Position numbers and translations under genes: made by a program
Shown here: positions 929-44,443 of the stretch, one piece after another
How the letters are laid out: each line of letters opens with the position of its first letter
Position numbering within the stretch: position 1 is the stretch's first letter
Notes under the pieces: generated by a model
The model's input: only the letters and a program-made list of their open reading frames with translations
Database searches by the model: none
Told to the model about the DNA's origin: nothing
Source: a phage
Sequence record: PZ049723.1
Reading direction: 5' to 3' (one strand)
Length of the DNA: 44,509 nt

Positions 929-1230
929 TAAGCTCGCTCCACAAAAACAATAACGTCACATTCAGATGCGGAGTAAACCCCGCCACCTACCGCACTTGCC
1001 GCGGAAACCGTGATAGTGTTCCCGCTGGCGGTTATTCTGCGTCCTGGCCCGACCGCGCCTTTATCCAGTGCGACCACGTATCCGACCTTCATCCCCGCCG
1101 GTACTGGGAACGACCACGCGCCTGATTTTTGTCCTTCCGCAAGATGAATCCTTCCGATCACGCTTACCGGTTTAATGCCGTAGTTGTTTGGGCGTCCTTG
1201 CGCGTCCCACGTTGCGATACCGAATGCCAT
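928..1230 (-). CDS. Hypothetical protein (tail-associated by position)
   Basis: 100-aa ORF, ATG at 1230 with GAGG RBS; follows J-like gene after a hairpin. Confidence 0.5.
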   Translation of the reverse strand: MAFGIATWDAQGRPNNYGIKPVSVIGRIHLAEGQKSGAWSFPVPAGMKVGYVVALDKGAVGPGRRITASGNTITVSAASAVGGGVYSASECDVIVFVERA

Positions 1231-1242
1231 AAATAACCTCGT

Positions 1243-1263
1243 TAAAAAGGGGCCAAAGCCCCT
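1243..1263 (-). terminator. Rho-independent terminator-like hairpin after J-like gene
   Basis: aggggc-caaa-gcccct stem; on minus strand followed by TTTTTAAC. Confidence 0.45.
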
Positions 1264-1266
1264 ATA

Positions 1267-4686: not shown

Positions 4687-5300
4687 TCGTTCAAGTCCTC
4701 GGTTACGATTCCGGCAGAAATAATAGCGCCGCCGATCTCACGCTCGCCCCATAATACACCAAGTGCCGTGCCTTGCGCGGTCGTGTTCACAGGCCCGCCG
4801 AACGCGTACGACGCCTTGTTATCAACGTCCTGCCGTGTCTGCAATCCCTTCGGTTGCGGAGACAGCAATTGCATAACGCCCCCCAGCGCCATCGACATCC
4901 CGAACGAAAACGTCGCTGCGCCGATAGAGGCCGCGGTTGCCGCTGAAGCTCCAAAAGCGGCAGTCGCAAGCCCGCCGGTATAGAACGACGCCACCACGAT
5001 TGCTACACCCGCCAGCAATTGGCCCAGTCCGCTTTTTGCACCAGTCATAACCGGCGCGATGGTCACTACGCGATTGCCGTGGAACTCGCCTAGCTCATCG
5101 TAGCCGGTCAGAGTGTGATTGCCCTTGCGCACTTTGAACATCATGTTGTCCAGGTGGGCCGACATTAGAAAGTCCTGTAAGCCGGGTAACTTCACGCACA
5201 GGCCGGTGATACCCTCGCCCGGTGTGAAGCAGTCCAGCTTATGCACTTTACCAAAACGACGTCCTAAGACGCCGTACAATTTAAATGTGGTCATTGCCAT
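4683..5300 (-). CDS. Tail assembly protein I-like
   Basis: 205 aa; C-terminal Gly/Ala-rich hydrophobic segment; position between K-like and J-like genes. Confidence 0.65.
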   Translation of the reverse strand: MAMTTFKLYGVLGRRFGKVHKLDCFTPGEGITGLCVKLPGLQDFLMSAHLDNMMFKVRKGNHTLTGYDELGEFHGNRVVTIAPVMTGAKSGLGQLLAGVAIVVASFYTGGLATAAFGASAATAASIGAATFSFGMSMALGGVMQLLSPQPKGLQTRQDVDNKASYAFGGPVNTTAQGTALGVLWGEREIGGAIISAGIVTEDLNE

Positions 5301-6031
5301 TCTGTGATATTCCCCGGTAGGTCTTTATGACGTACCCATTTAACCACATTGTCGCGGAAAAATCCTGCCCGGAAGGGTATCACGCTCGACAGGCTGCCGT
5401 AGATATGGTGTAGTAGTTGGTTGCCCGGAAGGTAGATTCCGGCATGGTTAGGCACTGGCGCGCTAATCTGCATGATGACCATCGCCCCCGGCGTATTCTC
5501 CTCACACTCCCGGAAGCCCGCGCTATACCAATTGTCCATATACAGGTTTTCGCCTGTCTCCCACCAGTTATACGGAACACGGAAGTCTGGCAGGTTTACG
5601 CCCTGCTTTTTATGCCAGTCCATAACGAGGCCATAACAATCCGTAATTCCGAGAACAAATCGGCGACCCACCAGCGGCGGGTCTTCCGGGTCGATCTCGA
5701 TAAAGTCGCCATATTCGTTAGTGATGGTCCAGACGACGCCGCTGCCGTTGCATCCGTTAACGTCGCCCAATGACGGGGTTAGCTCGCGCTGGCCCGGATG
5801 CGAGTGGACTACGCGCACGACGTCGCCCATATCCTCGGCATCCATCCAGGCCATATCACTAATCGTGAACGCGTCTTTGCGTGAGCGCACGCCGGTCGGG
5901 TCTTCGAATACGTTAACGCACGGGATAAAAACTTGCTTACGGCCCACCATGACAACCAGGCCGCAGGCTTCTTCCGGCAGACATGCCGCGACGTGTGCGG
6001 CGATATCGCTTTTAACCTTTTTCGTTAACAT
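5291..6031 (-). CDS. Tail assembly protein K-like (JAB/MPN plus NlpC/P60-like domains)
   Basis: Contains VVHSHPG (JAB-type HxH) and a downstream TDCYGL Cys motif; track ORF starts at GTG 6037, ATG at 6031 has AAGGGG RBS. Confidence 0.7.
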   Translation of the reverse strand: MLTKKVKSDIAAHVAACLPEEACGLVVMVGRKQVFIPCVNVFEDPTGVRSRKDAFTISDMAWMDAEDMGDVVRVVHSHPGQRELTPSLGDVNGCNGSGVVWTITNEYGDFIEIDPEDPPLVGRRFVLGITDCYGLVMDWHKKQGVNLPDFRVPYNWWETGENLYMDNWYSAGFRECEENTPGAMVIMQISAPVPNHAGIYLPGNQLLHHIYGSLSSVIPFRAGFFRDNVVKWVRHKDLPGNITEWQ

Positions 6032-6033
6032 GG

Positions 6034-6822
6034 TCACCCCTTGATTAATTTGGACCCAGGAAAACCACCGAAGTCCAGCACCGCAGCTTTAGGGTCCGCA
6101 AGCCCTTGCCCGAAACGAAGATAGCAGTCGGATAGACAGCCTCCGCATCGGTCCATATTCATCGCAATTACTTCATTACCCCGCTCGTCGTAATACTTGA
6201 TCCCAGGCTTCGCAAGGTTCCATGTGCACCCGTCCCCGCTGGCGTACTTCCCGTTGAGCGCCCATTCGCACATATTCATGATTTGGCGACGGGGAACGAC
6301 CTGCCCTTCCATATCCGCGGGTGAGGATAGTGCGAAGGTGATTTGCTTTCCCGGATTGCGCCCGACCTGCGAGTCGATGTAATACTCCTGGACTCGTTTC
6401 TGCGTCGGGTCTGGGTCTGTCCCGTTGTCCAGGAACTTCGCGAACGTATCAATGATCTCAACCTTCGCCCCCAGTAGCTGGTCGTGGTTCAGCGACAGCC
6501 TGGTGATTATGCCGCCAATATCGACAATGGTCAGCTGCGGTTCCGCTGCCGTTGACGTGGAGAAGTTGAGGCCGGACAAATCAAAGGGCCAAAATTCGAA
6601 CTCCTGCCCGCCGAAGAAGATGGATTTAGGCTTCAGCTTGTCCTCGTCACCCCCAGCGGCAGCAATATCCTCGGCAGTGTGTGGTATAAAGCAGTAATGA
6701 AAATAGTGGTGGCCCGCGCCGATCGCACCGTCTCCTGGTTCCACGTCCTGCGCGTCAATGTGAATCAGGCGAACGCGGCCCGATGGGTCAAAGCGCGTCG
6801 CCTCACGATATAATTTATTCAT
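6034..6822 (-). CDS. Minor tail protein L-like
   Basis: 262 aa; C-terminal Cys cluster (CGGCLSDC) as in lambda gpL; position between M-like and K-like genes. Confidence 0.65.
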   Translation of the reverse strand: MNKLYREATRFDPSGRVRLIHIDAQDVEPGDGAIGAGHHYFHYCFIPHTAEDIAAAGGDEDKLKPKSIFFGGQEFEFWPFDLSGLNFSTSTAAEPQLTIVDIGGIITRLSLNHDQLLGAKVEIIDTFAKFLDNGTDPDPTQKRVQEYYIDSQVGRNPGKQITFALSSPADMEGQVVPRRQIMNMCEWALNGKYASGDGCTWNLAKPGIKYYDERGNEVIAMNMDRCGGCLSDCYLRFGQGLADPKAAVLDFGGFPGSKLIKG

Positions 6823-7418
6823 CTTACAAACCCGATAGCAGTCTTAAGGGTGGCGGATACCGTTGCCGTGTAGTGTCCGTTGTCAGTGTACGACAAGCTC
6901 GAGCGCTCGACCACGAATAAACCTGTTTCTCCATCCGGCGCGGTGACGACAAACGGCTTGACGAAGTGCCCGCGAAGGAAGTTGTAAACCAGTTTAGGGT
7001 TGCACCACTTGTCGGTAGTCAGTCCTATGAATTGCACGGGGAACTGTTTCGTTTCGGCGTTCGGGCCGTCCGCAATGTTCTGTCCGTAACCGTTACCGAA
7101 TTGCAATTCCTCGGACCGGAAAGCCAACTGCACGTCTCCGCCGCCTTGCAATTGCATGTGCCAGTAATAGGGCCATTCGTTTGATCGCGGGTCGTGTGCT
7201 TCGATTAGCTCATATACCGCACCGGATTTCGTTGGCCCGGCCCAGTTATCCACCAGAGTGATGACGGTGTTAGAGTTGAATGCCGCAATTTTTCCGGTGT
7301 AGTCGTTGCCGTCGATGCTGGCGAATACGCGTACCTTCCCGATCTCGCTCAAGAACGCCGTCCCAGCGCCCGTGACGGTCTTACTTCCTTTCGTTAGTGT
7401 GATTGTACCTTGTGACAT
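6819..7418 (-). CDS. Minor tail protein (gpM position)
   Basis: ORF immediately after tape measure; ATG at 7418 preceded by GGGGG RBS; an upstream in-frame ATG at 7457 overlaps the tape-measure stop (ATGA) and is an alternative start. Confidence 0.5.
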   Translation of the reverse strand: MSQGTITLTKGSKTVTGAGTAFLSEIGKVRVFASIDGNDYTGKIAAFNSNTVITLVDNWAGPTKSGAVYELIEAHDPRSNEWPYYWHMQLQGGGDVQLAFRSEELQFGNGYGQNIADGPNAETKQFPVQFIGLTTDKWCNPKLVYNFLRGHFVKPFVVTAPDGETGLFVVERSSLSYTDNGHYTATVSATLKTAIGFVR

Positions 7419-34038: not shown

Positions 34039-34209
34039 ATGCGTATTAAAGCCAGCGAAGTAAAAGTCGGAATGCAAGTATGGTCCAAGCTACTGGGGGA
34101 ATATTTCACGGTTGCCGAGATTCGCAACAACGGCGAAGAGATCGCCCTGTCAGACGGCATCTTCTCCATGATCGGCAGCGCTGACGCCGTAGTGAGGATT
34201 AAGCAATGA
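34039..34209 (+). CDS. Hypothetical small protein (56 aa)
   Basis: ATG at 34039; stop overlaps the polymerase start (ATGA). Confidence 0.35.
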   Translation: MRIKASEVKVGMQVWSKLLGEYFTVAEIRNNGEEIALSDGIFSMIGSADAVVRIKQ

Positions 34210-36497
34210 AAGACTTCGAACGTCTGTTTCTCGACACCGAGACATTTAGCGATGTGGACCTGAAGAAAGTGGGCGCATACGCCTACGCGGAACACCCAAC
34301 TACTGAGATTATGATTTGCACCTACGCCATCGACGAGGGGCGCGTGCAGACATGGGATTGCACCGAATCCCCTACAATGCCGCGTGAACTGCGCAAGGCG
34401 CTCCGCCGGGTATCCCGCAAGAAAGCAAAAATCGTGATGGCTAACGGCCTCCTGTTTGACCGCCTGGTCATTCGCGAGAAGTGGGGCATTGACCTGCCAG
34501 TGTGCCAGATCGAAGACACCATGATTATGGCCTTTCGCCACGCGCTGCCCGGTAGCCTCGATATGCAGTGTCAGGTACTGGGCGTTGACGCAGAGCACGC
34601 GAAGGATAAGGCGGGCAAGGCGCTGATCAAACGGTTCTGTAAGCCTACCCCTAAGACCTACAAAATCCGCCGCTACACTCGCGAGACTCACCCAGAAGAG
34701 TGGGCCAAATTTCTGCGCTATGCCGCGCTGGATATTGTTGCCATGCGTGAAGTCTACTGGCGCATACCGGACTGGGGCAACTCACCGAAGGAAGACGAAA
34801 TCCTGCTCATCGACCAGATTATTAACGACCGAGGCTTCTATGTGGACGTTGACCTGGCGAACGCCGCGATCAAGGCGGTGCGGGCGCATAAGGAAGAATT
34901 GAAGGAAGAGGCATGGGAGCGGTTTGGCGGCAAGCTGACCGGAAACGACTTCCTGCCGATTCTGCGTGATATTGCCCCGGCGTTCACGATCCACAACGCG
35001 CAGAAATCCACGCTGAACGACTTGCTTGAAGACCCGGACTTCCCCGACGAAGGCAAAGCGCTTATCGAAATGCGCCTCGGCGCGTCATCAACGGCATCGA
35101 CTAAATACAATCCGCTCGTTAATGGCCTGTCTGCCGATGGTCGTCGCCGTGGGTGTATTCAGTATGGCGGCGCAAAGCGCACGCTACGCTGGGCTGGTAA
35201 AGGCTTCCAGCCGCAAAACCTGGCACGCGGCGAGTATAGCGACGACCACGAAGGGAAGATTAAGCGCCGCGAAGGCGAGAGCGACGTCTCGTTTTGGGTG
35301 CGGTCGCACATGCTCACCAATGGCATCAATTCCCTGTTACGCGGGACAGCGCACTGGGCGTACGACATATCGAAGCTGACCGCCTCGACCGTTCGCGGGT
35401 GCATTATCCCTGCAAAGGGCAAGAAGTTTGTCGTAGCTGACTACTCCAACGTGGAAGGGCGCGGCCTTGCCTGGATCGCTGGCGAGAAAACCGCGCTAAT
35501 GGTGTTTAAGGCCGGGCGCGATATCTATTGCGAGACTGCCGGTAAGATGTTCGGCCTGGACCCGGACTACATCAAAGCCAACCGCAAAGACTTGCGCCAG
35601 ATCGGTAAGGCGTGTGAGTTGGGGCTGGGCTATGGTGGCGGCGTGGCGGCGTTCTTACAGTTCGCTAAAAACCTGGGCCTCGACCTTTACACTATGGCGG
35701 ACGTCATGAAAGGCACGTTCCCGGATCACATTTGGGCAGCGGCTAAACGGGGTTATGAATACGCCCGCATTAACGAAGCGAAGCGCCCGCCGAAGCCTGG
35801 CAAGAAAGACGAGCGACCAACATACATACTGCCGAAAAACGTATGGCTTACCTGTGACGCGATCAAACGTATGTGGCGTGAGGCTCACCCGAAGACGGTA
35901 GCCTTTTGGGCCGAGCTTGAGGACGCGGTGTTGTGTGCAATCCGCAATCCGGGCAAAGCCTACTGGGCTGGCGCTAACGTTCGCCCAGACGGTAGAAAAG
36001 CGCTCAAGATTGTGCGCACGAAGGCGAAGCACGACCCAACCTTCGACGAGGAGCGCGACGACCCGAACGCTGCGGGGTGGTGGTTGAAAATTGAGTTGCC
36101 GTCAGGGCGCATCATGAGCTATCCCGGTATCGCGCTGTCTGTCACGACCGAGATCGACGAAGACACCGGCAAGAAGCGCACCAGCACACGCATCAAATAC
36201 CAGGGCGAGAATCAGACGACGCGCCAGTGGGGTTTCCAGTACACCTACGGCGGCAAACTAACGGAGAACATCGTACAGGCGTTGTGCCGCGATATTCTCG
36301 CGTGGTCCATGCCTGGCGTTGAAGCCGCCGGATATGAGATCGTCCTGTCAGTGCACGATGAATTGGTCACCGAAGTGCCGGACACCGACGACTACACCAC
36401 CGAGGAGCTTTGCGCGCTGATGTGCGACCTGCCTATTTGGGCAAAAGGCTTCCCACTTGCCGCCGAAGGCGACATTATGTACAGGTACAGGAAGTAA
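34206..36497 (+). CDS. DNA polymerase, family A, with 3'-5' exonuclease domain
   Basis: 763 aa; exonuclease motif LFLDTETFS near N-terminus; polymerase motif KQIGKACELGLGYGGG; motif C VLSVHDELV. Confidence 0.9.
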   Translation: MKDFERLFLDTETFSDVDLKKVGAYAYAEHPTTEIMICTYAIDEGRVQTWDCTESPTMPRELRKALRRVSRKKAKIVMANGLLFDRLVIREKWGIDLPVCQIEDTMIMAFRHALPGSLDMQCQVLGVDAEHAKDKAGKALIKRFCKPTPKTYKIRRYTRETHPEEWAKFLRYAALDIVAMREVYWRIPDWGNSPKEDEILLIDQIINDRGFYVDVDLANAAIKAVRAHKEELKEEAWERFGGKLTGNDFLPILRDIAPAFTIHNAQKSTLNDLLEDPDFPDEGKALIEMRLGASSTASTKYNPLVNGLSADGRRRGCIQYGGAKRTLRWAGKGFQPQNLARGEYSDDHEGKIKRREGESDVSFWVRSHMLTNGINSLLRGTAHWAYDISKLTASTVRGCIIPAKGKKFVVADYSNVEGRGLAWIAGEKTALMVFKAGRDIYCETAGKMFGLDPDYIKANRKDLRQIGKACELGLGYGGGVAAFLQFAKNLGLDLYTMADVMKGTFPDHIWAAAKRGYEYARINEAKRPPKPGKKDERPTYILPKNVWLTCDAIKRMWREAHPKTVAFWAELEDAVLCAIRNPGKAYWAGANVRPDGRKALKIVRTKAKHDPTFDEERDDPNAAGWWLKIELPSGRIMSYPGIALSVTTEIDEDTGKKRTSTRIKYQGENQTTRQWGFQYTYGGKLTENIVQALCRDILAWSMPGVEAAGYEIVLSVHDELVTEVPDTDDYTTEELCALMCDLPIWAKGFPLAAEGDIMYRYRK

Positions 36498-36775
36498 TGA
36501 CACCAGAAGGCAAGATTCAAAGTCACCTGATGAGACGGGTGAAAGATGTTGGCGGATTCTGCCGAAAACTGGCATGGGAGGGGCGCGCAGGTGCGCCCGA
36601 CCTGATTATTATCATCAACGGCAAAATAGTGTTCGTCGAAGTGAAGCGCCCCGGCGGAAAACCGAAGCCGCACCAGGTACGTGAACATGAGAGGATGGCC
36701 CGCCGCGGCGCGGACGTTCGCGTTATAGACAACATCGCCGACTGTGATTTATTGGTTGCTGAATTGGTCGCATAG
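36497..36775 (+). CDS. VRR-NUC domain nuclease
   Basis: ATG at 36497 overlapping the polymerase stop; 92 aa; GAPDLIIIINGKIVFVEVKRPGGKPKPHQ matches the VRR-NUC D...E.K core. Confidence 0.7.
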   Translation: MTPEGKIQSHLMRRVKDVGGFCRKLAWEGRAGAPDLIIIINGKIVFVEVKRPGGKPKPHQVREHERMARRGADVRVIDNIADCDLLVAELVA

Positions 36776-36784
36776 CGGTATAGT
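36756..36784 (+). promoter_or_regulatory. Promoter-like sequence inside 3' end of VRR-NUC gene
   Basis: TTGGTTGCT at 36751-36759 supplies TTGCTG (36756-36761); 17-bp spacer; TATAGT (36779-36784); GAGGA RBS follows. Confidence 0.35.
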
Positions 36785-36815
36785 GTGCCGGTTAGCCATA
36801 TCGAGGATTTTAGAG

Positions 36816-36989
36816 ATGATTGAAGAAAAACGTTGCAGTAATTGCGGCTGCGTTAAACCGCTATCCCAGTTCCATAAATACACCGGTAAGACTGCGCGAA
36901 GCCCGGACGGGTATCGGGCAGAGTGCAAATCGTGCCGCAATAAAAAAGAGCGCGAACGGCAGCGCCGCTACCGCGCAGAGCAAAAATAA
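36816..36989 (+). CDS. Small Zn-finger protein
   Basis: ATG at 36816 with GAGGA RBS; 57 aa; CSNCGC ... CKSCR four-Cys pattern and basic C-terminus. Confidence 0.45.
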   Translation: MIEEKRCSNCGCVKPLSQFHKYTGKTARSPDGYRAECKSCRNKKERERQRRYRAEQK

Positions 36990-36996
36990 TTAATAC

Positions 36997-37019
36997 GGCG
37001 GGCTTGTCCCGCCATTTTT
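36997..37019 (+). terminator. Rho-independent terminator
   Basis: ggcggg-cttgt-cccgcc stem followed by ATTTTTG. Confidence 0.55.
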
Positions 37020-37032
37020 GGGAGACATGACG

Positions 37033-37251
37033 ATGAAAGAACATTACCGACTCACCAAGCTGGGCGAATGTAAACCGGGCGATCGCGTGTGGTTTATTGC
37101 TGGCCTGAATTACCCGCTGCCGTTGACGGTGTGCTGGCAGAAGTTTAAGAGCTTCCGGGCTACCGGTGTCCACATCGGACACGCCACCAACTACGACGCC
37201 ACAAAAAGGAACTGGAACAGTGAGACTGAAGTCTGGAAAAAGGCGGAATAA
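37033..37251 (+). CDS. Hypothetical protein
   Basis: ATG at 37033 with GGAGAC RBS 6 nt upstream (track ORF begins at TTG 37018); 72 aa. Confidence 0.4.
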   Translation: MKEHYRLTKLGECKPGDRVWFIAGLNYPLPLTVCWQKFKSFRATGVHIGHATNYDATKRNWNSETEVWKKAE

Positions 37252-37255
37252 AGAC

Positions 37256-38680
37256 ATGGCAAGATTCCGACGCCGCGAATATCAGAAGTTGATAACCGCG
37301 TTCATCCTCAAGCATAAGCGGTGTAATATTTGGGCGACAATGGGATCCGGTAAAACCGGCGCGACAATGTGGGCGCTGAATAAGATGTTCCAGACTGGTA
37401 TCCTGTCCAGCCTGGAGGACCGCGTACTGGTGCTGGCCCCGCTGCGCGTTGCGTCAGGTACGTGGCCCCCGGAGCAAGAAAAATGGCGATTCCCCGCCTT
37501 GCTGGTAGTAGACGGCACAGGATCAGAAAAAGACCGCATAGCCGCGCTGGAGAGCGACGCTAACGTGGTTTGTGTTAACTACGATGTGGTTGAGTGGCTG
37601 GTTGATTATTACGGCGATGCGTGGCCATTTACGGTCGTTGTTGCCGATGAATCCACTAAGCTGAAAGGCTACAGGAGTAAGCAGGGGAGTAAGCGCGCCC
37701 GCGCACTGGCAGCGATTGCACATAAGCACGTCAAGCGCTGGATTAACCTGACCGGCACACCCGCGCCAAATGGCTTGAAAGACTTATGGGGTCAGACGTG
37801 GTTTGTCGACGGCGGAGAACGCCTCGGCAGTAGCTATAAGGCATTTACCGATCGCTGGTTCATTAGCAAGCCTGTTAAGCCTGGCAGCTTCACGATGCAG
37901 CACGCTCCGCTAAAGAACTCCGAGAAAGAAATACAACAACGCCTGTCGGACGTATCACTAACCGTTGACGCGGCTGAATACTTCGGGTGCGACAAGCCAA
38001 TCTATACGCCGGTTGTCGTGGACCTGCCGAAGAAAGCCCGCAAGATTTACGACCAGTTTGAAAGCGAGCTATTTGCAGAACTGGAAAGCGGAACAGTGGA
38101 AGCGGCGAACGCTGCGTCGAAGACAATTAAGTGCCTTCAGCTTGCTTCCGGCGCTGTGTATAAGGTGGATGAAGACGGCGAACGGACCGACGAGTGGGTG
38201 AAGATTCACGACGCGAAGCTGGACGCGCTGGAAAGTATCGTGGAGGAGTTGAACGGTGCGCCGTTGCTCGTCGCGTATCAGTATAAACATGACCTGGCTC
38301 GTCTTAAGAAGAAATTTCCGCACGGCGTTGCGTTGGGTAAAGGAAAGCAGGGCAATAAGGATATGGAAGCGTGGAACAGGGGCGAGATCCCCATCATGTT
38401 CGCGCACCCGGCATCGGCGGGTCATGGACTTAACTTGCAGGACGGCGGACACCACCTGGCAATCTTCTCCGATACCTGGAACTTTGAGCACTTTTCGCAG
38501 ATCGTTGAACGTATCGGGCCGGTTCGCCAGATGCAGGCTGGACACCCTCGACCGGTATTCGTCTACATTATCCAGGCGCGCGGGACACTGGACGAACTGG
38601 TCGCCGAGCGTCGCGACAGTAAGCGAGATATACAGGACGATTTGATGGAATACATGAAAGCTAAAAAGGCGCGCAAATGA
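37256..38680 (+). CDS. SNF2-family helicase/ATPase
   Basis: ATG at 37256; Walker A MGSGKTG, motif II VVADESTKL, SNF2-type motif III LTGTPAPNGLKDLW. Confidence 0.8.
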   Translation: MARFRRREYQKLITAFILKHKRCNIWATMGSGKTGATMWALNKMFQTGILSSLEDRVLVLAPLRVASGTWPPEQEKWRFPALLVVDGTGSEKDRIAALESDANVVCVNYDVVEWLVDYYGDAWPFTVVVADESTKLKGYRSKQGSKRARALAAIAHKHVKRWINLTGTPAPNGLKDLWGQTWFVDGGERLGSSYKAFTDRWFISKPVKPGSFTMQHAPLKNSEKEIQQRLSDVSLTVDAAEYFGCDKPIYTPVVVDLPKKARKIYDQFESELFAELESGTVEAANAASKTIKCLQLASGAVYKVDEDGERTDEWVKIHDAKLDALESIVEELNGAPLLVAYQYKHDLARLKKKFPHGVALGKGKQGNKDMEAWNRGEIPIMFAHPASAGHGLNLQDGGHHLAIFSDTWNFEHFSQIVERIGPVRQMQAGHPRPVFVYIIQARGTLDELVAERRDSKRDIQDDLMEYMKAKKARK

Positions 38681-39387
38681 CTATTGCTAAAATGACAATC
38701 TGGCCATTATTCGACGGCAGCGGGTTGATGATTGAGCGTGCTGCCGAGATGGGGCATAAGTGTTATTGCTTCAACTACTCCGAAGCCGATCACGGGTCTT
38801 ACCTTGACTACCGGATCTATGGTCGCGGAATCCGCTATCGTAATGAGTTTATCGATCTGGACTTCGTGGACCGCGCGATGAATGGTGATTTTGGAACGCC
38901 GGATATCATCTATGCGTTCCCTCCGTGTACGGATCTGGCCGTGAGCGGCGCGCCAGCTTTCCCGCGCAAGCGTGCAAAAGACCCTGCCTTCCAGCTTAAG
39001 GCGGTGCGCACCGCGAAGATCGCCGCTTACCTGGGTGATTTCTTCGAAGTGCCGTACATGATTGAGAATCCGCGCAGTGTGCTTTCCACCAAGTGGCGCA
39101 AGCCAGACCACTCGTTTGACCCGTGGGAGTATGGGGGATATCTGCCGGAGGATGACGTACACCCGCTCTTCCCGGAATACATCAACGCCCGCGATTCATA
39201 TCCGAAGCTGACCTGCTTGTGGACCGGCAACGGCTTCCGTATGCCGGAGAAAAAGCCTGTATTCGTTGAAAAAGGGTACTCGAAGCAGTATAGTCGCCTC
39301 GGAGGCAAATCAGCCCGCACAAAATTAATCCGGTCGCTCACCCCGCGCGGCTTCGCGATAGCAGTCAATGAGGAAAATTTAAAATGA
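38677..39387 (+). CDS. Short DNA cytosine-5 methyltransferase-like protein
   Basis: 236 aa; motif I-like LFDGSG, catalytic-type FPPC (PCT rather than PCQ), ENP (motif VI-like ENV); apparently lacks a long target-recognition region. Confidence 0.45.
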   Translation: MTIAKMTIWPLFDGSGLMIERAAEMGHKCYCFNYSEADHGSYLDYRIYGRGIRYRNEFIDLDFVDRAMNGDFGTPDIIYAFPPCTDLAVSGAPAFPRKRAKDPAFQLKAVRTAKIAAYLGDFFEVPYMIENPRSVLSTKWRKPDHSFDPWEYGGYLPEDDVHPLFPEYINARDSYPKLTCLWTGNGFRMPEKKPVFVEKGYSKQYSRLGGKSARTKLIRSLTPRGFAIAVNEENLK

Positions 39388-39707
39388 ATACTACATTCGA
39401 AGCCATTGATTTTTCGGTTGCAATGACTAACCAGTTATTCTCCTACGACAGCAAAACCGGAGTCATCCGTCTGAAGTCCACAGGCTGCAAAATTGGCAAC
39501 ATCAATACTGCCGATGGTGGCACACGTATCGAATGCAACGGCAAAACGCTATCGGGCGCCCGCGTGGCGTGGATCATTGAGACTGGCAATACAATCCCTC
39601 CAGGCTATGCCGTAGTGTGCCGTCAACGCACACCAGGCCATTACGGCAACCGCATTAGTAACCTGTATCTGGTAGACGTTGCGCGCGACCCAAATTTTTA
39701 TTCGTAA
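39384..39707 (+). CDS. HNH-like (HNH_3/NUMOD-type) endonuclease-like protein
   Basis: 107 aa; pattern ARVAWIIETGNTIPPGYAVV ... GNRISNLYLV resembles HNH_3 cores, but the usual first His is not evident. Confidence 0.4.
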   Translation: MNTTFEAIDFSVAMTNQLFSYDSKTGVIRLKSTGCKIGNINTADGGTRIECNGKTLSGARVAWIIETGNTIPPGYAVVCRQRTPGHYGNRISNLYLVDVARDPNFYS

Positions 39708-39708
39708 A

Positions 39709-39741
39709 TTGGTTGCATAACCGTATTGGTTGCATTATATT
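39709..39741 (+). promoter_or_regulatory. Promoter-like sequence formed by tandem TTGGTTGCA motifs
   Basis: TTGGTTGCA at 39709-39717 and 39726-39734; TTGCAT (39713-39718), 17-bp spacer, TATATT (39736-39741). Confidence 0.4.
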
Positions 39742-39743
39742 GA

Positions 39744-39769
39744 GGGTGTCCGGTTTGGACGCCCTTTTT
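39744..39769 (+). terminator. Rho-independent terminator overlapping predicted transcription start
   Basis: gggtgtcc-ggttt-ggacgccc 8-bp stem (one G-U pair) followed by TTTTT. Confidence 0.5.
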
Positions 39770-39788
39770 AATACCCGGAGACAGTGAT

Positions 39789-40031
39789 ATGAAATCATTA
39801 TTTTTCGACTACGACGGCGACCTTCGATTTTGGGTGCTTCTCACCCTCATGATTGCCGGTTGTATTGGCATACCTTCGACGGCTATTTACTACACGGAAC
39901 GCTACGAATGCAAGACCGTGTATGCCGAGCAAACCGGACGCAATACCCAATGGCGATATGGTGTCTGCTGGGTTGAAATGGATGGCAAATTTATTCCTCG
40001 CGATGAGATTCGCACAACGGAGCTTAAATAG
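39789..40031 (+). CDS. Small membrane protein / possible lipoprotein
   Basis: 80 aa; hydrophobic helix WVLLTLMIAGCIGIP with Cys in lipobox-like context; GGAG RBS. Confidence 0.45.
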   Translation: MKSLFFDYDGDLRFWVLLTLMIAGCIGIPSTAIYYTERYECKTVYAEQTGRNTQWRYGVCWVEMDGKFIPRDEIRTTELK

Positions 40032-40496
40032 ATGAAAATTTTACAAGAAGAGAAAAATTACTGGGCCGCGCAATGCCTTGAAGCCCGCGAACAGGCCGAA
40101 CGTGCGAACGCGTTGGCGGACACCAACCAGGCGCTATATGAAGGAGAGAAGAAAGTGCGCCAGGAGCTAGCGGAGCGCTTCGGACTGCTATTCGAATTGA
40201 TGGGGATTATGCAGCGCACCGGATACACCACCAGCGTTGCACTAAACCGCATCACTGCCGATGGTTTGCGTGAACATTGTAAACGTGCTGAGGAGTACGT
40301 GCGACCGAAGGGTCGCACGTCTAAGGTTGACCGTAAAGATTTGGTGCTTATGGCGTGGCGCAACCCTACAAATGGCAGCTTCTACCCGGACGCGCGCCCG
40401 CTTAGTGCCGAGGAATCAAAGCGCGTGCAACGCATTATCAAAACCGGCAATAAAATCGCCCTGTATGCGATAGATCCAGATCATGCAGAAGAGTGA
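40032..40496 (+). CDS. Hypothetical protein
   Basis: 154 aa; N-terminal coiled-coil-like region; no motif recognised. Confidence 0.45.
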   Translation: MKILQEEKNYWAAQCLEAREQAERANALADTNQALYEGEKKVRQELAERFGLLFELMGIMQRTGYTTSVALNRITADGLREHCKRAEEYVRPKGRTSKVDRKDLVLMAWRNPTNGSFYPDARPLSAEESKRVQRIIKTGNKIALYAIDPDHAEE

Positions 40497-40968
40497 GCAA
40501 AAAGATAGCTGGCGCACGCCGCCAGCTTTATTTAAACCGCTGCGACGGAAGTACCGATTTCGTTACGATATGGCGGCAAGCGATGCAAACCACCTGCTCC
40601 CGCGATACTTCACGGCGGATAACAGCGCGCTTGAGGTGGACTGGGCAGAGTTGAAAGGGTGGAAGTGGTGCAACCCGCCGTATTCCGATCCGCTGCCGTG
40701 GGTTGAGTGCGCGGCGCACGGACGCCGGACCGTCATGCTACTGAATCAGGACACGTCGACGAAGTGGGCGAAGCTGGCCCGGAGGACCGCCAATATGATA
40801 ATTCTTCTGGACTGGCGTGTTCGATTCATTCACGCCGTCACCGGCGAAGTCGGTCCGAGCAATAGCAAGTGCCAGCAATTAATAATATTTGACGAAGCGC
40901 CGCCCCTCGGCAGCGCACAAATTGAAATAATGAGCGAGAGTGAGCTACATGAATATCTTAATCGTTGA
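40483..40968 (+). CDS. DNA N6-adenine methyltransferase (phage Dam-like)
   Basis: 161 aa; N-terminal WRTPPALF and catalytic NPPY motif (CNPPYS). Confidence 0.75.
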   Translation: MQKSEQKDSWRTPPALFKPLRRKYRFRYDMAASDANHLLPRYFTADNSALEVDWAELKGWKWCNPPYSDPLPWVECAAHGRRTVMLLNQDTSTKWAKLARRTANMIILLDWRVRFIHAVTGEVGPSNSKCQQLIIFDEAPPLGSAQIEIMSESELHEYLNR

Positions 40969-41173
40969 TCGCAGTATGCGCGTCGTGGACGAAATTGCTA
41001 AACGCTACCAAATCAACCCGCGGGAGAACAAAGTGCGGCGTTGCAGCCGCCCGGAGCAATTACTGGGTATGGACCTTACCGGTTGGCTTGTAATGACCGC
41101 CCGTTGTCATCTTGTGTGTGACACGTTTTCCGCCCGTATTGTTCGTATGAATCTTATTGAGGAATTGAAATGA
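40949..41173 (+). CDS. Hypothetical protein
   Basis: ATG at 40949 (track ORF begins at GTG 40940); 74 aa; overlaps Dam-like gene end. Confidence 0.35.
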   Translation: MNILIVDRSMRVVDEIAKRYQINPRENKVRRCSRPEQLLGMDLTGWLVMTARCHLVCDTFSARIVRMNLIEELK

Positions 41174-41640
41174 AATTACTGATTTGTGATCTGGATGGCG
41201 TTATTAACGGTTCAAGTGATGCGCGCGCCGACCTGGTGCCGGGGATAAAAACGAAATCAACATTTTGGGCGAAGTGGCACAAAGCGCACGTACGCGAAGA
41301 CCTGAACATGGATATGCTGCCGCTACTGCGCATGTACAAAGAGCAAGGCTTCGAGATCGCGTATCTGACCAACCGGCAGCGCGAATGTTGGGACACCACC
41401 GCCGAGCAATTGGAGGTCTTCCCCGTAGGTCGATTGTTCATGCGCCACATGCTGGACGACACCCCGCCGCCAGAGTTTAAGGCGTGCGCCGTTTTCAAAA
41501 TGGTCTGCTATGCGGACGTGTCGGAACTGGTCATCATTGAAGACTGTCCGAAGAACATCGCGGCAATTCGTCGGGCGTGTGGCGATCTGGTCCCGAAAAT
41601 TTACGCAATAAACGTTGCAAAATTCACTTGCAACCAATAG
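41170..41640 (+). CDS. HAD-superfamily phosphatase
   Basis: 156 aa; N-terminal HAD motif I ICDLDGVI; GAGGAA RBS. Confidence 0.6.
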   Translation: MKLLICDLDGVINGSSDARADLVPGIKTKSTFWAKWHKAHVREDLNMDMLPLLRMYKEQGFEIAYLTNRQRECWDTTAEQLEVFPVGRLFMRHMLDDTPPPEFKACAVFKMVCYADVSELVIIEDCPKNIAAIRRACGDLVPKIYAINVAKFTCNQ

Positions 41641-41657
41641 GTTGGTTGCACTATAGT
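41628..41657 (+). promoter_or_regulatory. 22-bp perfect palindrome TGCAACCAA-TAGG-TTGGTTGCA embedded in promoter-like sequence
   Basis: TTGCAA (41628-41633), 18-bp spacer made of the palindrome, TATAGT (41652-41657); a GC hairpin (41667-41687) and AAGGA RBS follow. Confidence 0.45.
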
Positions 41658-41704
41658 TAACGCGTCGGGAGGCAATACCGCCTCCCGCTAAAAAGGAAAA
41701 CATC

Positions 41705-42226
41705 ATGAAAGCGTACGAATACTGCAAAAGCGCCGCCACCACTATGGAACAGCGCGGGAAGGAAAACGGCTATGACAACGCGAAAGAAGAACGCAGCGCT
41801 AAACAAATCGCTGCCGTGTTTAACGCGCTTACCGGGCGCGACCTTACCGAGCAAGAAGCCTGGACCTTCCTGATCTGCCTGAAGCTGGTGCGCCAGCACC
41901 GTAAGCACCAGGAAGATAACATCGTTGACCTGGTAGCATACGCCGCACTGCTGGGTGAGTCTTACATGACCGTGCATGACGAGATTCAGATCGATACAAC
42001 GGCAGCACAATTCGACAGCCTCAAAGGCGGGCCCATCGCCACTGGAGGAACGTGGCATCCTTCGGCATCGGCGGGCAAGACGGTTAAGGCCCGCGATTTT
42101 GGAGTTGTAGCCCAGGACGTCCAGCCTATGGTCGTGCTCACCGGCGAAGACGGATCGAAAATCTGCATGACGCAGGAAGACTTCCGTAACATGGAAAAAA
42201 CACTGGTACGTAGCGCACTGAAATAA
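41705..42226 (+). CDS. Hypothetical protein
   Basis: 173 aa; helical N-terminal region (SAKQIAAVFNALTGRDLTEQEAWTFLICLKLVRQ); function not assigned. Confidence 0.5.
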   Translation: MKAYEYCKSAATTMEQRGKENGYDNAKEERSAKQIAAVFNALTGRDLTEQEAWTFLICLKLVRQHRKHQEDNIVDLVAYAALLGESYMTVHDEIQIDTTAAQFDSLKGGPIATGGTWHPSASAGKTVKARDFGVVAQDVQPMVVLTGEDGSKICMTQEDFRNMEKTLVRSALK

Positions 42227-42268
42227 TTCTAATCGCGGGCTTCGGCCCGCATCAATGAGGACCACACG

Positions 42269-42844
42269 ATGTACGGCGAATATGAAATATCCGGTAAACA
42301 ATTCCACCTGGCGGCAATGATAGCAAGCATCGAGTTTGATCAATGGCGCTTAAAGTCTGACGCATGCAAGCAAAGCCGACTGGTCGGTGTGCTGGGCGAA
42401 ATGTTTGCGGGCATGTATCTCGAAGGGCAAGCAGGCGGTCGCAGTTGTATACCGCAGGGTCTGCTCATGCGTACCGGCCTGTTTAGCGCCAACACCATTG
42501 ACCGCGGCGATATCATCATGGTCGGCAAGCGCAAGGTTAAGTCCGGTCCAGACTTCCGCGAGCATGTGGTCGATGCCGTATGGACCTACGAGGTTAAGGC
42601 CACCAGCGGCATCCGTAGGGGCCTGGTTGAGGCACGTTGCGCTCGCGAGTATCTCACTCGTCGAGTTGCCGGTGTTATTCTGGTTGGGGTATCGTTCGGG
42701 CAACATAGCGCCAGCGGCGTGATCGAGGATATTGCGGAGCCATACGTGATAGTGAACGACTGGCCCCTGGTGGAAGTGGACGGAAAGGAATATTACGAAA
42801 GCCCGCTTGTGCGGCGAAAAATAGACTGGGAAAACTCAAACTAA
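42269..42844 (+). CDS. Hypothetical protein
   Basis: 191 aa; GAGGA RBS; contains DAVWTYEVKA, which could be a PD-(D/E)XK-like D...E.K core but is unverified. Confidence 0.5.
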   Translation: MYGEYEISGKQFHLAAMIASIEFDQWRLKSDACKQSRLVGVLGEMFAGMYLEGQAGGRSCIPQGLLMRTGLFSANTIDRGDIIMVGKRKVKSGPDFREHVVDAVWTYEVKATSGIRRGLVEARCAREYLTRRVAGVILVGVSFGQHSASGVIEDIAEPYVIVNDWPLVEVDGKEYYESPLVRRKIDWENSN

Positions 42845-42866
42845 AAACAGGGGCCATGTGGCCCCT
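42843..42866. terminator. Bidirectional terminator between convergent early and tail-fibre genes
   Basis: Palindromic aggggcca-tg-tggcccct stem flanked by A-run upstream and T-rich sequence downstream. Confidence 0.55.
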
Positions 42867-42871
42867 TATCC

Positions 42872-44443
42872 TTATTTCTCCGCCAACTTACTTTCTAAGG
42901 CCTCAATCTTCGCCGCCAAATGCTGAACAGTCGCGACAAGGTCAAGTAGCAGGACGTTTTCGTCTAATGCCAGAAACTCTTTACCAGTTGCGTCGGCGTA
43001 CTTGCGAACATACTGCGGGTCGATCTCTTCCAACTGCTGCGCGATAAAACCACGTCTGACCGTTTCCTTTTTGTCGTAATTATAAACAAAGGAAGAGTAT
43101 TCCATAGCCATGACGTTAGTGTATGCAACTTGAGTATCGATCCGGGCGATATCATGCTTCAGCGCCCTGTCGGATACCGGGGATTTTGAGAAAATATAGT
43201 TAACCGACCCAGTGTTGTTGCCGAAGGTAATATCGTATGACTCGGCGTTAAAGAAAGTATTCCGAATGATATCGCCGTTAGGCTGTATTCCTGACGCCAT
43301 ATCATAGTCATAGACCTGCGAAATCATAGCGTTAGGGTGTGACGACACCGATGTGGGGTGGATCAACGCCCCGAACGAAATAAAGTTACGCCACCCGCCA
43401 CCAGTCGCACCAGTGCCGCCGCCGACAAAACCTACGTGACCCGAGTATTGACCGTTATTCCATGTATTCGCGAGGGTGACGTAGGTATTACCAGGCGACG
43501 CCCCGGTGGACGCTGGATTCAATCCTTTGTTAAAGATGATCTTGCCATCATATTTAAAGTCCCACGACGGCGAGGTGCTTGGATCGAGGGCGTTAACGGT
43601 TGCCAAACGGGTCCAGATGTCTACGTTATTACGCCCCTGAATCTGAAGCGATGTTCTGTATTTTTCGCCCCCGGCAACGAACACAGATGAGTCAAATCGA
43701 CCGCCGTATACTTCTGTGCCATTCGCCGGATCTGAAGCGTAATTATTGCGTAAACCCCATAGTCCCACGTCATCAAGACCGCGCCACACCCACCCTTTAG
43801 TCGCAGAGTCAAGAGGGTCGACTGGGTCCGCGCCTACGCGAAGCGGTCCTGACGGCATAAGGTTAGCCCACGACGCACTTTTGTCCGCAAGCCCGGCGAG
43901 GTTGCCGGATTTGGTTAGCAGATTGTCTGGGTTTACGCTTTGCGCCCATTCTTCGGCCTCATTGCGAAATCCTTGCGCTGCTGCTTCTGATGCCGCGGCT
44001 TGTTGTTGCAGGTTGCGCATTTCAACGGGGTCAACTTCCTTCAGCAATTGCGAAAGATAGCCCCACGACATACCCTGCATAACTTGCCCGTTCGGCAGCG
44101 TTACCGTGATTTCCTCAGCGTCACCGAAGATTGCACGCCAGTTGTTTTCGTCCGCGATCATCAAGCGCAATGCTTTCTGTGCCTGGACTGTTACGCCCAT
44201 CGTCGCCAGTGACATGGTATCGCGCGCAACGCCATCCCAGGCAAGGCCGGTTGCCGTGGGGCCGTCGAACGGCAGCACCAGCGTAAGCGCGGTGTCGCTT
44301 TCGACGGACGCGATAGCAACAGTGTAAGGGACTTGCCCCACCACCAGCGTTAAGAAGTCGCCAGCTTTAAACGCGGTGAACGTCGTGCCTACCCCGACAA
44401 CCGCCTTGCTGTTATTCGTTACGGATAGTGTACCCGCTGCCAT
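42872..44443 (-). CDS. Tail fibre protein with C-terminal intramolecular chaperone (peptidase S74-type) domain
   Basis: ATG at 44443 with GAGGA RBS (an upstream in-frame ATG at 44470 lies inside a TTGGTTGCA motif); C-terminal RGFIAQQLEEIDPQYV ... LAAKIEALESKLAEK matches the chaperone-domain signature. Confidence 0.7.
   Translation of the reverse strand: MAAGTLSVTNNSKAVVGVGTTFTAFKAGDFLTLVVGQVPYTVAIASVESDTALTLVLPFDGPTATGLAWDGVARDTMSLATMGVTVQAQKALRLMIADENNWRAIFGDAEEITVTLPNGQVMQGMSWGYLSQLLKEVDPVEMRNLQQQAAASEAAAQGFRNEAEEWAQSVNPDNLLTKSGNLAGLADKSASWANLMPSGPLRVGADPVDPLDSATKGWVWRGLDDVGLWGLRNNYASDPANGTEVYGGRFDSSVFVAGGEKYRTSLQIQGRNNVDIWTRLATVNALDPSTSPSWDFKYDGKIIFNKGLNPASTGASPGNTYVTLANTWNNGQYSGHVGFVGGGTGATGGGWRNFISFGALIHPTSVSSHPNAMISQVYDYDMASGIQPNGDIIRNTFFNAESYDITFGNNTGSVNYIFSKSPVSDRALKHDIARIDTQVAYTNVMAMEYSSFVYNYDKKETVRRGFIAQQLEEIDPQYVRKYADATGKEFLALDENVLLLDLVATVQHLAAKIEALESKLAEK

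What the first reader, a model, noticed from the sequence alone, without database searches (positions are those of the whole stretch)
37256..40968. DNA-modification / anti-restriction style cluster: SNF2 ATPase, short C5-MTase-like protein, HNH-like protein and Dam-like methylase
Translationally coupled genes encode an SNF2-family ATPase, a 236-aa protein with C5-methyltransferase-like motifs (LFDGSG, FPPC, ENP) but no obvious long target-recognition domain, a possibly degenerate HNH-like protein, and shortly afterwards a Dam-like N6-adenine methylase, followed by a HAD phosphatase. Two different methyltransferase-type enzymes plus a remodelling ATPase suggest self-DNA modification for restriction evasion. 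The short C5-MTase-like protein could be a minimal orphan methylase or could have a different substrate.
Basis: partly seen in the sequence, partly recalled or inferred. Interest (0 to 1): 0.55.

Follow-up and report, generated by a model that had tools for sequence, protein, structure and literature searches.

The report
Dhillonvirus replication genes with two methylases
This is the ordinary, already annotated early-gene block of a Dhillonvirus coliphage: a replication helicase followed by two stand-alone DNA methylases, one of them a short cytosine methylase whose close relative has already been shown to methylate DNA and to set off a bacterial retron defence.

Summary
The window is a Dhillonvirus (HK578-like) genome. 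The block 37256-40968 is about 91-92% identical to over 150 deposited phages, where the same genes are annotated.

The 236-aa protein gets no Pfam hit itself, but it is a real C5 DNA methyltransferase:
- 53% identical over its full length to the Dcm of phage KarlJaspers. The K42 allele of that Dcm produces 5mC on retron Ec86 msDNA and triggers that defence.
- Cys84, Glu130 and Lys177 are invariant across the family.

The Dam-like protein is a PF05869 methylase with NPPY. The SNF2 ATPase is intact but travels with PolA and VRR-NUC, not with the methylase: 53 of 79 Dcm loci lack it. It is therefore a replication gene, not part of a modification machine. The HNH-like protein has lost the catalytic His.

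Anti-restriction by methylation is plausible but inferred. Six-base palindromes are strongly avoided, while CCWGG and GATC are not. However, Dhillonviruses are reported as comparatively RM-sensitive.

Also present is Ksap1, the known KpAvs2 trigger. Verdict: already known, low interest. The methylase's exact sequence specificity remains open.

The parts
36497..36775 (+). VRR-NUC nuclease (context). It forms the replication module with PolA (34206-36497) and the SNF2 gene.
   Evidence: PF08774 E 7.7e-06, 26.4 bits against cut-off 23.8. It co-occurs with PolA and SNF2 in all 22 loci that extend far enough upstream. The start was corrected to the ATG at 36497.
37256..38680 (+). SNF2-family ATPase/helicase, minimal core of 474 aa.
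   Evidence: PF00176 above cut-off. phrog_62 'DNA helicase' E 4.9e-156. PDB matches to Snf2 and the Sulfolobus Rad54-like core. Motifs at 37343-37360 (GSGKTG), 37646-37657 (DEST), 37748-37762 (LTGTP), 38420-38440 and 38498-38518.
38677..39387 (+). Short (236 aa) orphan DNA cytosine-C5 methyltransferase of the phage 'Dcm-like' family. Motif I is at 38707-38724, motif IV with the catalytic Cys84 at 38917-38928, and motif VI (ENP) at 39064-39072.
39384..39707 (+). HNH_3 / I-HmuI-like 107-aa protein without the catalytic His; restricted to Dhillonvirus relatives.
39789..40031 (+). 80-aa ORF of unknown function, variably present among dhillonviruses.
   Evidence: phrog_18961 E 2.9e-53. Found in only 6 of the 15 Dhillonvirus-like loci that carry the HNH-like gene.
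40032..40496 (+). 154-aa ORF of unknown function. The 'DNA ligase' label in PHROGs and some records is unsupported.
   Evidence: phrog_10530 E 4.2e-97. No Pfam, NCBIfam or PADLOC match. One record notes 'Possible DNA ligase but no evidence'.
40483..40968 (+). Phage Dam-type N6-adenine DNA methyltransferase (161 aa). NPPY is at 40672-40683 and DMAAS at 40567-40581.
   Evidence: PF05869 E 2.6e-34, 118.8 bits against 28.1. TIGR01712 83 bits, below its 97 cut-off. PADLOC orphan MTase E 2.1e-10. 29% identical to KarlJaspers Dam.
40949..41173 (+). Ksap1 homologue (74 aa), the Dhillonvirus protein sensed by Klebsiella Avs2.
   Evidence: Syntenic 74-aa ORF between the methylase and the phosphatase. 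59.5% identical to the SECphi18 locus and 91.9% to KarlBarth Bas17. Described in PMC11564622.
41170..41640 (+). HAD-superfamily phosphatase (156 aa); lies outside the finding's coordinates.
   Evidence: DLDG motif at 41188-41199. phrog_415 E 4.6e-37. PF03767 23.8 bits, below cut-off 27.

Best explanation
The region is the early DNA-replication and DNA-metabolism block of a Dhillonvirus. It contains two functionally separate things.

(1) The SNF2 ATPase belongs with DNA polymerase I and the VRR-NUC nuclease as a replication/recombination module. That role is inferred from co-inheritance.

(2) Two stand-alone ('orphan') DNA methyltransferases are expressed with the replication genes and methylate newly made phage DNA.
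- The 236-aa enzyme is a minimal C5-cytosine methyltransferase. It uses Cys84 (PPC) as nucleophile, Glu130 (ENP) to hold the flipped cytosine, and a divergent motif I for AdoMet. A conserved ~60-residue segment (aa 148-205) and a C-terminal RS-TPRGF helix stand in for the usual large recognition domain. That mapping is inferred.
- By homology with phage K42 Dcm it makes 5-methylcytosine, probably at CCWGG.
- The PF05869 enzyme makes N6-methyladenine. GATC is the likely site, based on my recollection of characterised members of that family, not on anything tested here.

The likely benefit is that fast-replicating phage DNA carries a full host-like Dam/Dcm pattern, and so resists nucleases blocked by those marks. 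The cost is that the cytosine methylase can be sensed by retron Eco1/Ec86, and the neighbouring Ksap1 by Avs2.

Shown here: gene content, homology, fold, conserved catalytic residues and gene-neighbourhood statistics. Taken from a paper: 5mC formation by the K42 homologue. Inferred: activity and specificity of this particular allele, and the anti-restriction role.
For: - Identity of the phage and conservation of the block: 163 phage records match, 151 over at least 80% of 4.7 kb; the best is KS_S9 at 92.2%. Oekolampad annotates the same gene order, including 'Dcm-like' and 'Dam-like' methyltransferases.
- C5-MTase: phrog_757 E 6.9e-83. 53% identity, E 1e-85, with KarlJaspers Dcm, same length.
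- Experimental data on the K42 allele: it is a 711-bp gene. Escape mutants of retron Ec86 map to it. Its expression raises 5mC on msDNA by LC-MS, and a C82A/E128A/K175A/K176A mutant is inactive.
- The equivalents here, C84, E130 and K177, are invariant in 55 representatives at 34-54% identity.
- 36 of 68 close homologues hit PF00145. The best scores 28.5 bits against cut-off 22, over motifs I-IV.
- Dam: PF05869, 118.8 bits.
- SNF2 separate from the methylase: only 26 of 79 Dcm loci have it, always alongside PolA and VRR-NUC where the locus reaches that far. The order is reversed in Jerseyvirus-like loci. Vequintavirus, Krischvirus and Drexlerviridae have other neighbours.
- Site statistics: 28 of 64 six-base palindromes have observed/expected below 0.5 (median 0.58). 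CCWGG is 148 against 160 expected and GATC 168 against 205.
- Hanrivervirus pSf-1, which carries the same Dcm family, is reported resistant to at least six restriction enzymes.
Against: - The window protein itself has no Pfam, NCBIfam or PDB sequence match.
- CCWGG specificity was assumed, not demonstrated, for K42 Dcm. At 53% identity, specificity need not be the same.
- The BASEL study reports Dhillonvirus phages as comparatively sensitive to type I, II and III RM systems, and no simple link between methylase genes and resistance. It did not test a CCWGG- or GATC-cutting enzyme.
- Neutral CCWGG and GATC frequencies are also what host Dam/Dcm protection alone would give.
- No methylome data for any Dhillonvirus were found.
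Confidence: 0.78

Rival explanations
1. The SNF2 ATPase and the recognition-domain-poor C5 methylase work as one machine. The ATPase remodels or opens DNA so that the minimal methylase can act, as in eukaryotic DNMT5 (a fused SNF2-MTase) or the DISARM DrmD/DrmMII pair.
Against: 53 of 79 loci encoding the methylase have no SNF2 homologue within 6 kb. SNF2 always co-occurs with PolA and VRR-NUC. K42 Dcm expressed alone in E. coli raises 5mC on msDNA. The DrmD matches are generic SNF2 similarity, 26 bits against a cut-off of 950.
Confidence: 0.05
2. The 236-aa protein is not a DNA methylase. It acts on RNA, tRNA or free nucleotides, transfers a group other than methyl, or is catalytically dead.
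Confidence: 0.05
3. The methylases are active on phage DNA, but their main role is not restriction evasion. Candidates are host mimicry for replication, mismatch repair or packaging control, or interference with host methylation-dependent processes or other defence systems.
For: Dhillonviruses are reported as comparatively RM-sensitive, with no pattern linking methylases to resistance. E. coli hosts usually already supply Dam and Dcm (my own knowledge). The genome relies heavily on palindrome avoidance.
Against: Orphan phage Dam and Dcm enzymes are classically linked to protection from nucleases that cut the same sites (my own knowledge). The related pSf-1 is resistant to several enzymes. No positive evidence for another role was found.
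Confidence: 0.2

Closest known systems
Phage K42 / KarlJaspers (Bas06) Dcm, the trigger of retron Ec86 (Eco1). Sources: Wang et al., bioRxiv 10.1101/2023.08.16.553469; published as Cell Rep 2024;43:114857 (citation seen).
   Same: Same length (236 aa). 53% identity end to end. Same PPC, ENP and K-T-C-L-W motifs. Three of the four residues mutated in the inactive K42 variant are conserved (C84, E130, K177). Same PHROG family.
   Different: Different phage family: Dhillonvirus, not Drexlerviridae/Hanrivervirus. Different gene neighbours. K175 of K42 is Pro176 here. Activity, specificity and retron triggering have not been tested for this allele.
Canonical bacterial C5 DNA methyltransferases (PF00145: E. 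coli Dcm/M.EcoRII, M.HhaI, M.HaeIII) and the DNMT3A/3B catalytic domain.
   Different: About 90-100 residues shorter than M.HhaI (327 aa). There is no recognisable TRD. No Pfam hit for this sequence, and only 9-17% identity in structural alignments. Like DNMT3, which also has a very small recognition region, it may need oligomerisation for DNA contact; that is speculation.
Phage Dam family PF05869 / TIGR01712 (phage N-6-adenine methyltransferase).
   Same: 161-aa protein matches PF05869 at 118.8 bits with the NPPY catalytic motif.
   Different: It scores below the TIGR01712 equivalog cut-off, 83 against 97 bits. It is only 29% identical to the 233-aa Dam of KarlJaspers. Specificity is untested.
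Ksap1 of Dhillonvirus SECphi18 (KpAvs2-stimulating protein 1; PMC11564622).
   Same: 74-aa ORF in the same position between the methylase and phosphatase genes. 59.5% identical to SECphi18 and 91.9% to Bas17, whose Ksap1 was chosen in that study as coming from a KpAvs2-restricted phage.
   Different: The allele differs. Natural Ksap1 variants are known to escape Avs2, so its sensing status is unknown.
I-HmuI-type HNH homing endonucleases (HNH_3, PF13392).
   Different: No C-terminal DNA-binding domains. The Asp-His general-base position reads Arg80-Gln81 in all homologues. The Pfam score is below the cut-off.

Membership tests
C5 cytosine DNA methyltransferase (PF00145 superfamily) | Catalytic Pro-Cys (motif IV) | tested here: met
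   F81-P82-P83-C84. C84 is invariant in 68 close and 55 distant homologues.
C5 cytosine DNA methyltransferase (PF00145 superfamily) | Glu-Asn-Val-type motif VI | tested here: met
   E130-N131-P132. E130 and P132 are invariant and N131 is at least 90% conserved.
C5 cytosine DNA methyltransferase (PF00145 superfamily) | AdoMet-binding motif I (FxGxG) after the first beta strand | tested here: inconclusive
   LFDGSG follows strand 7-11 of the model. Across distant relatives only a D-x-(T/S)-G core persists.
C5 cytosine DNA methyltransferase (PF00145 superfamily) | Profile match above Pfam's gathering score | tested here: not met
   No PF00145 match for this protein even at E<=1. 36 of 68 close homologues do match; the best is 28.5 bits against cut-off 22, over profile positions 4-92 only.
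C5 cytosine DNA methyltransferase (PF00145 superfamily) | C5-MTase three-dimensional fold | tested here: met
C5 cytosine DNA methyltransferase (PF00145 superfamily) | Large variable target-recognition domain between motifs VIII and IX | tested here: not met
   Only about 60 residues (148-205) lie between the WRKP segment and the C-terminal helices. That segment is highly conserved rather than variable.
C5 cytosine DNA methyltransferase (PF00145 superfamily) | AdoMet-dependent formation of 5mC in DNA | not testable with these tools
   Shown only for the 53%-identical K42 homologue, by LC-MS of msDNA.
Phage short Dcm-like family (phrog_757; K42/KarlJaspers Dcm) | Full-length homology and the same ~230-aa architecture | tested here: met
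   phrog_757 E 6.9e-83 over aa 2-234. E 1e-85 and 53% identity with Bas06 Dcm. 1511 phage records carry the family.
Phage short Dcm-like family (phrog_757; K42/KarlJaspers Dcm) | Residues needed for K42 Dcm function (C82, E128, K175, K176) | tested here: met
   C84, E130 and K177 are conserved. K175 corresponds to P176 here, and that position is not conserved in the family.
Phage short Dcm-like family (phrog_757; K42/KarlJaspers Dcm) | CCWGG specificity and retron Eco1 triggering | not testable with these tools
   The specificity was assumed from E. coli Dcm in the source paper. CCWGG is not depleted in the window, ratio 0.93, which is compatible but not diagnostic.
Phage Dam (PF05869) | Profile match above cut-off, and (D/N)PPY catalytic motif | tested here: met
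   118.8 bits against 28.1. NPPY at aa 64-67. It is below the TIGR01712 equivalog cut-off.
SNF2 family ATPase (PF00176) | Profile match above cut-off, and helicase motifs I, II, III, V and VI | tested here: met
   43.3 bits against 24.9. Motifs located. PDB Snf2 and Rad54-like matches.
HNH endonuclease (HNH_3, I-HmuI type) | Catalytic His (general base) of the H-N-H/N motif | tested here: not met
   The position reads R80-Q81 in all 7 homologues. Only the N89...N93-L94 part is retained. The alignment to the motif was made by eye from the Pfam match.
HNH endonuclease (HNH_3, I-HmuI type) | Profile or fold match | tested here: inconclusive
DISARM / DNMT5-type SNF2-coupled methylation system | Obligate co-occurrence of the SNF2 ATPase with the C5 methylase | tested here: not met
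   53 of 79 methylase loci lack an SNF2 homologue within 6 kb. The DrmD match is 26 bits against a cut-off of 950.

The most novel reading that the evidence does not exclude
The short, recognition-domain-poor phage Dcm family may not simply copy host Dcm (inner C of CCWGG). It might instead methylate a different position, a relaxed motif, or hairpin/single-stranded DNA.

This would explain an oddity in the retron Ec86 study. msDNA from E. coli MG1655, which to my knowledge is dcm+, carried little 5mC until the phage enzyme was expressed. It would also explain why the retron is not self-activated by host Dcm.

If so, this roughly 230-aa family, present in over 1500 phage genomes, would be a minimal C5 methylase with its own recognition mechanism, and its mark would be a true 'non-self' signal.
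Probability: 0.2. Interest if true: 0.55.

Novelty: already known. Interest (0 to 1): 0.2.

Why it matters
For this window, little. The gene block is conserved and annotated in over 150 Dhillonvirus genomes.

The practical value is in annotation:
- The 236-aa protein can be called a Dcm-like C5 DNA methyltransferase even though Pfam and NCBIfam are silent.
- The SNF2 gene should be read as a replication gene.
- The 'HNH endonuclease' and 'DNA ligase' labels on the two neighbouring ORFs are doubtful.

The block also holds two proteins that host immune systems use as infection signals, Dcm for retron Eco1 and Ksap1 for Avs2. That matters for predicting host range in phage therapy.

The remaining scientific question is how a C5 methylase without a normal recognition domain reads its site, and which site that is.

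Tried and rejected
- Sequence searches of the 236-aa protein, and of a 68-sequence profile, against the PDB found nothing relevant: one spurious kinase match at E 0.5-1.7.
- Pfam and NCBIfam gave no hit for the protein itself, and PADLOC gave none. The link to C5-MTases therefore had to come from relatives, fold and literature.
- I tested whether SNF2 and the methylase form a conserved pair. This was rejected.
- The helicase next to Dcm in KarlJaspers is not a homologue of the SNF2 protein here, E 0.13.
- Antisense ORFs of 101-158 aa inside the SNF2, Dcm and 154-aa genes have no phage-family match and are treated as chance.
- The Rfam scan of 36400-42900 found nothing.
- The promoter scan was no better than shuffles, 7 found against 6.6 expected.
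- Literature searches for a Dhillonvirus or Drexlerviridae methylome, or a demonstrated recognition motif, found none.
- The published Cell Reports version of the retron paper is not held, so I relied on the preprint.
- Site-frequency analysis cannot discriminate specificity. CCGG, GCGC, AGCT and TCGA are as neutral as CCWGG.
- The PHROG labels 'DNA ligase' (154 aa), 'phosphofructokinase' (DUF6378 protein) and 'polynucleotide kinase' (HAD protein) were not accepted as functions.


Full report
**What the window is.** A 4.7-kb query spanning the finding matches 163 phage records. 151 of them match over at least 80% of its length, nearly all Escherichia or Shigella phages of the genus Dhillonvirus. 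The best is KS_S9 at 92.2% identity. In the BASEL phage Oekolampad (Bas18) the same stretch is annotated, in the same order, as: DNA polymerase I, three small hypothetical proteins, DNA helicase, 'Dcm-like C5 cytosine methyltransferase', 'putative homing endonuclease', two hypothetical proteins, 'Dam-like N6-adenine methyltransferase', a hypothetical protein, and 'putative phosphatase'. The window is therefore a 44.5-kb Dhillonvirus genome, and the finding is its early DNA-metabolism block.

**Checking the observation.**
- SNF2 protein (37256-38680, 474 aa): it passes Pfam's threshold for PF00176. It matches yeast Snf2 and the Sulfolobus Rad54-like core among solved structures. All the expected helicase motifs are present.
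- 236-aa protein (38677-39387): it carries LFDGSG, FPPC and ENP at residues 11-16, 81-84 and 130-132.
- Dam-like protein (40483-40968): PF05869 at 118.8 bits, with an NPPY motif.
- HAD protein (41170-41640): a DLDG motif and a strong PHROG match, but it is below Pfam's cut-off.
- Translational coupling is real: ATGA overlaps join SNF2 to the methylase and the methylase to the HNH-like gene.
- Antisense ORFs in the region match nothing, and there is no Rfam family.

**The 236-aa protein.** Taken alone it is silent in Pfam, NCBIfam, PADLOC and PDB sequence searches. Four independent lines nevertheless place it among DNA C5-methyltransferases.
1. *Family size and link to PF00145.* It belongs to a large phage family. 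It matches phrog_757 at E 6.9e-83. There are 2888 clusters with E<=0.001 in the 90% database. There are 809 representatives in the 50% library. 1511 phage records carry it, almost all about 225-260 aa long. 36 of 68 close relatives hit PF00145. The best scores 28.5 bits, above the cut-off of 22, over the part of the profile that holds motifs I to IV.
3. *Conserved residues.* In an alignment of 55 representatives only 34-54% identical to the query, the invariant residues include Cys84, Glu130, Pro132, Tyr175, Lys177, Thr179 and Trp182. These are the catalytic Cys of motif IV, the Glu of motif VI, and a conserved strand after a roughly 30-residue insert.
4. *An experimentally studied homologue.* The protein is 53% identical (E 1e-85, end to end, same length) to the Dcm of phage KarlJaspers. 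The K42 strain of that phage was studied directly. All four escape mutants of retron Ec86 hit this 711-bp gene. Its expression was toxic only with the retron present. LC-MS showed high 5mC on msDNA with the wild-type enzyme and low 5mC with a C82A/E128A/K175A/K176A mutant or empty vector. Three of those four residues correspond to the invariant C84, E130 and K177 here.

*Where it departs from the canonical family.* There is no large variable target-recognition domain. Only about 60 residues (148-205) lie there, and they are highly conserved. A C-terminal RS-TPRGF helix follows. Motif I is divergent.

**Is the SNF2 ATPase part of a modification system?** I fetched 79 viral loci that encode the methylase, with 6-kb flanks, and searched them for every gene of the block.
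- SNF2 is present in 26 loci. In every one that extends far enough upstream it comes with PolA and VRR-NUC.
- 53 loci lack it. These are mostly T1-like siphoviruses and large myoviruses.
- In Jerseyvirus-like phages the order is VRR-NUC, methylase, SNF2, the reverse of the order here.
- In Vequintavirus the methylase precedes a primase/helicase and polymerase. In Krischvirus it sits among small early genes. In KarlJaspers the nearby helicase is unrelated to this SNF2 protein.
- K42 Dcm works when expressed alone.

The ATPase therefore belongs to the PolA/VRR-NUC replication module. The methylase is an independent gene that tends to lodge in replication regions. One uncultured lineage (L029) has SNF2, Dcm and Dam directly adjacent. 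That suggests the HNH-like, 80-aa and 154-aa genes are lineage-specific insertions between the two methylases. The 80-aa ORF is found in only 6 of the 15 Dhillonvirus-like loci that carry the HNH-like gene.

**How it most likely works.** The two orphan methylases are made together with the replication proteins and mark new phage DNA. The marks are 5mC, probably at CCWGG by analogy with K42 Dcm, and m6A, probably at GATC. The GATC expectation rests on my recollection of characterised PF05869 enzymes, not on a test here.
- *In support.* The genome shows heavy avoidance of six-base palindromes: 28 of 64 have observed/expected below 0.5, and AAGCTT, GCCGGC, TCCGGA, CCCGGG and CCATGG are absent. 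CCWGG (148 against 160 expected) and GATC (168 against 205) are near neutral. This fits sites that are protected rather than avoided, but host Dam/Dcm protection would give the same picture. The related pSf-1 is reported resistant to at least six restriction enzymes.
- *Against a strong anti-restriction role.* BASEL found Dhillonvirus and Drexlerviridae comparatively RM-sensitive, with no simple link to methylase genes. It did not test CCWGG or GATC cutters.

**Cost side.** The block contains two known immune triggers.
- The Dcm family is the trigger of retron Eco1/Ec86.
- The 74-aa ORF between Dam and the phosphatase is Ksap1, the Dhillonvirus protein bound by Klebsiella Avs2. It is 59.5% identical to the SECphi18 protein and 91.9% identical to that of Bas17.

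**Open point.** The CCWGG specificity of K42 Dcm was taken from E. coli Dcm, not measured. The control msDNA came from MG1655, which to my knowledge is dcm+, yet it carried little 5mC. The preprint does not discuss host Dcm. The phage enzyme may therefore differ from host Dcm in site, position or substrate form. This is the only part with real novelty potential, and it concerns the family rather than this window.

**Verdict.** The feature is already known and annotated, so interest is low.

Noticed in passing
window 40949-41173 (+): The 74-aa ORF between Dam and the HAD phosphatase is a homologue of Ksap1, the Dhillonvirus-specific protein that activates Klebsiella pneumoniae Avs2 (PMC11564622). 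It is 59.5% identical to the SECphi18 locus and 91.9% to KarlBarth Bas17. It is the most variable gene of the block among dhillonviruses, at 62-91% identity.
   Followed up: yes
window 36816-36989 (+); the longer ORF call is 36744-36989: A 57-aa CxxC...CxxC zinc-ribbon protein just upstream of the SNF2 gene matches phrog_5558 'Lar-like restriction alleviation protein' (E 1.6e-18). It also matches, more weakly, N-terminal zinc regions of endonuclease VII and HNH families. It has no Pfam match. It could be an anti-restriction factor, but that is unverified.
   Followed up: partly
window 16051/16064, 23300/23323, 26976/27007, 33114/33130, 39709/39726, 41629/41642, 44461 and others: The 9-mer TTGGTTGCA occurs 27 times with at most one mismatch (12 exact), against 11.5 +/- 3.5 in shuffles (maximum 22). 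The copies are often in closely spaced pairs in gaps between genes. The pair at 39709/39726 lies in the gap after the HNH-like gene and is followed by TATATT and a hairpin plus T-run at about 39746-39769. It looks like a phage promoter or operator element.
   Followed up: partly
whole window: Very strong avoidance of six-base palindromes: median observed/expected 0.58, and 28 of 64 below 0.5. GCCGGC, TCCGGA, AAGCTT, CCCGGG, CCATGG and GGTACC are absent. CTAG (0.30) and GGCC (0.67) are also depleted. The phage appears to rely mainly on site loss to escape type II restriction.
   Followed up: partly
window 41705-42226 (+); also L073 and L087: The DUF6378 protein (PF19905, E 8.4e-10) downstream of the phosphatase also lies between a Dam homologue and the Dcm-like gene in two unrelated viral contigs. 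This hints at a link with the methylases. The PHROG label 'phosphofructokinase' looks unreliable.
   Followed up: no
window 40032-40496 (+): The 154-aa ORF is labelled 'DNA ligase' in PHROGs (phrog_10530) and in some GenBank records. It has no Pfam, NCBIfam or PADLOC match, and one record itself says 'no evidence'. This is probably a propagated mis-annotation.
   Followed up: partly
L029 (IMGVR_UViG_3300045988_071173), about 1176-7200: An uncultured 40-kb phage at 60-66% protein identity has PolA, VRR-NUC, SNF2, Dcm-like and Dam genes directly adjacent, without the HNH-like, 80-aa and 154-aa genes. This suggests those three are insertions specific to dhillonviruses.
   Followed up: no
bioRxiv 10.1101/2023.08.16.553469 (retron Ec86 study): The host used for the msDNA methylation assay, MG1655, is to my knowledge dcm+. 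Even so, control msDNA had little 5mC, and the CCWGG specificity of the phage enzyme was assumed rather than measured. The preprint does not mention host Dcm.
   Followed up: partly
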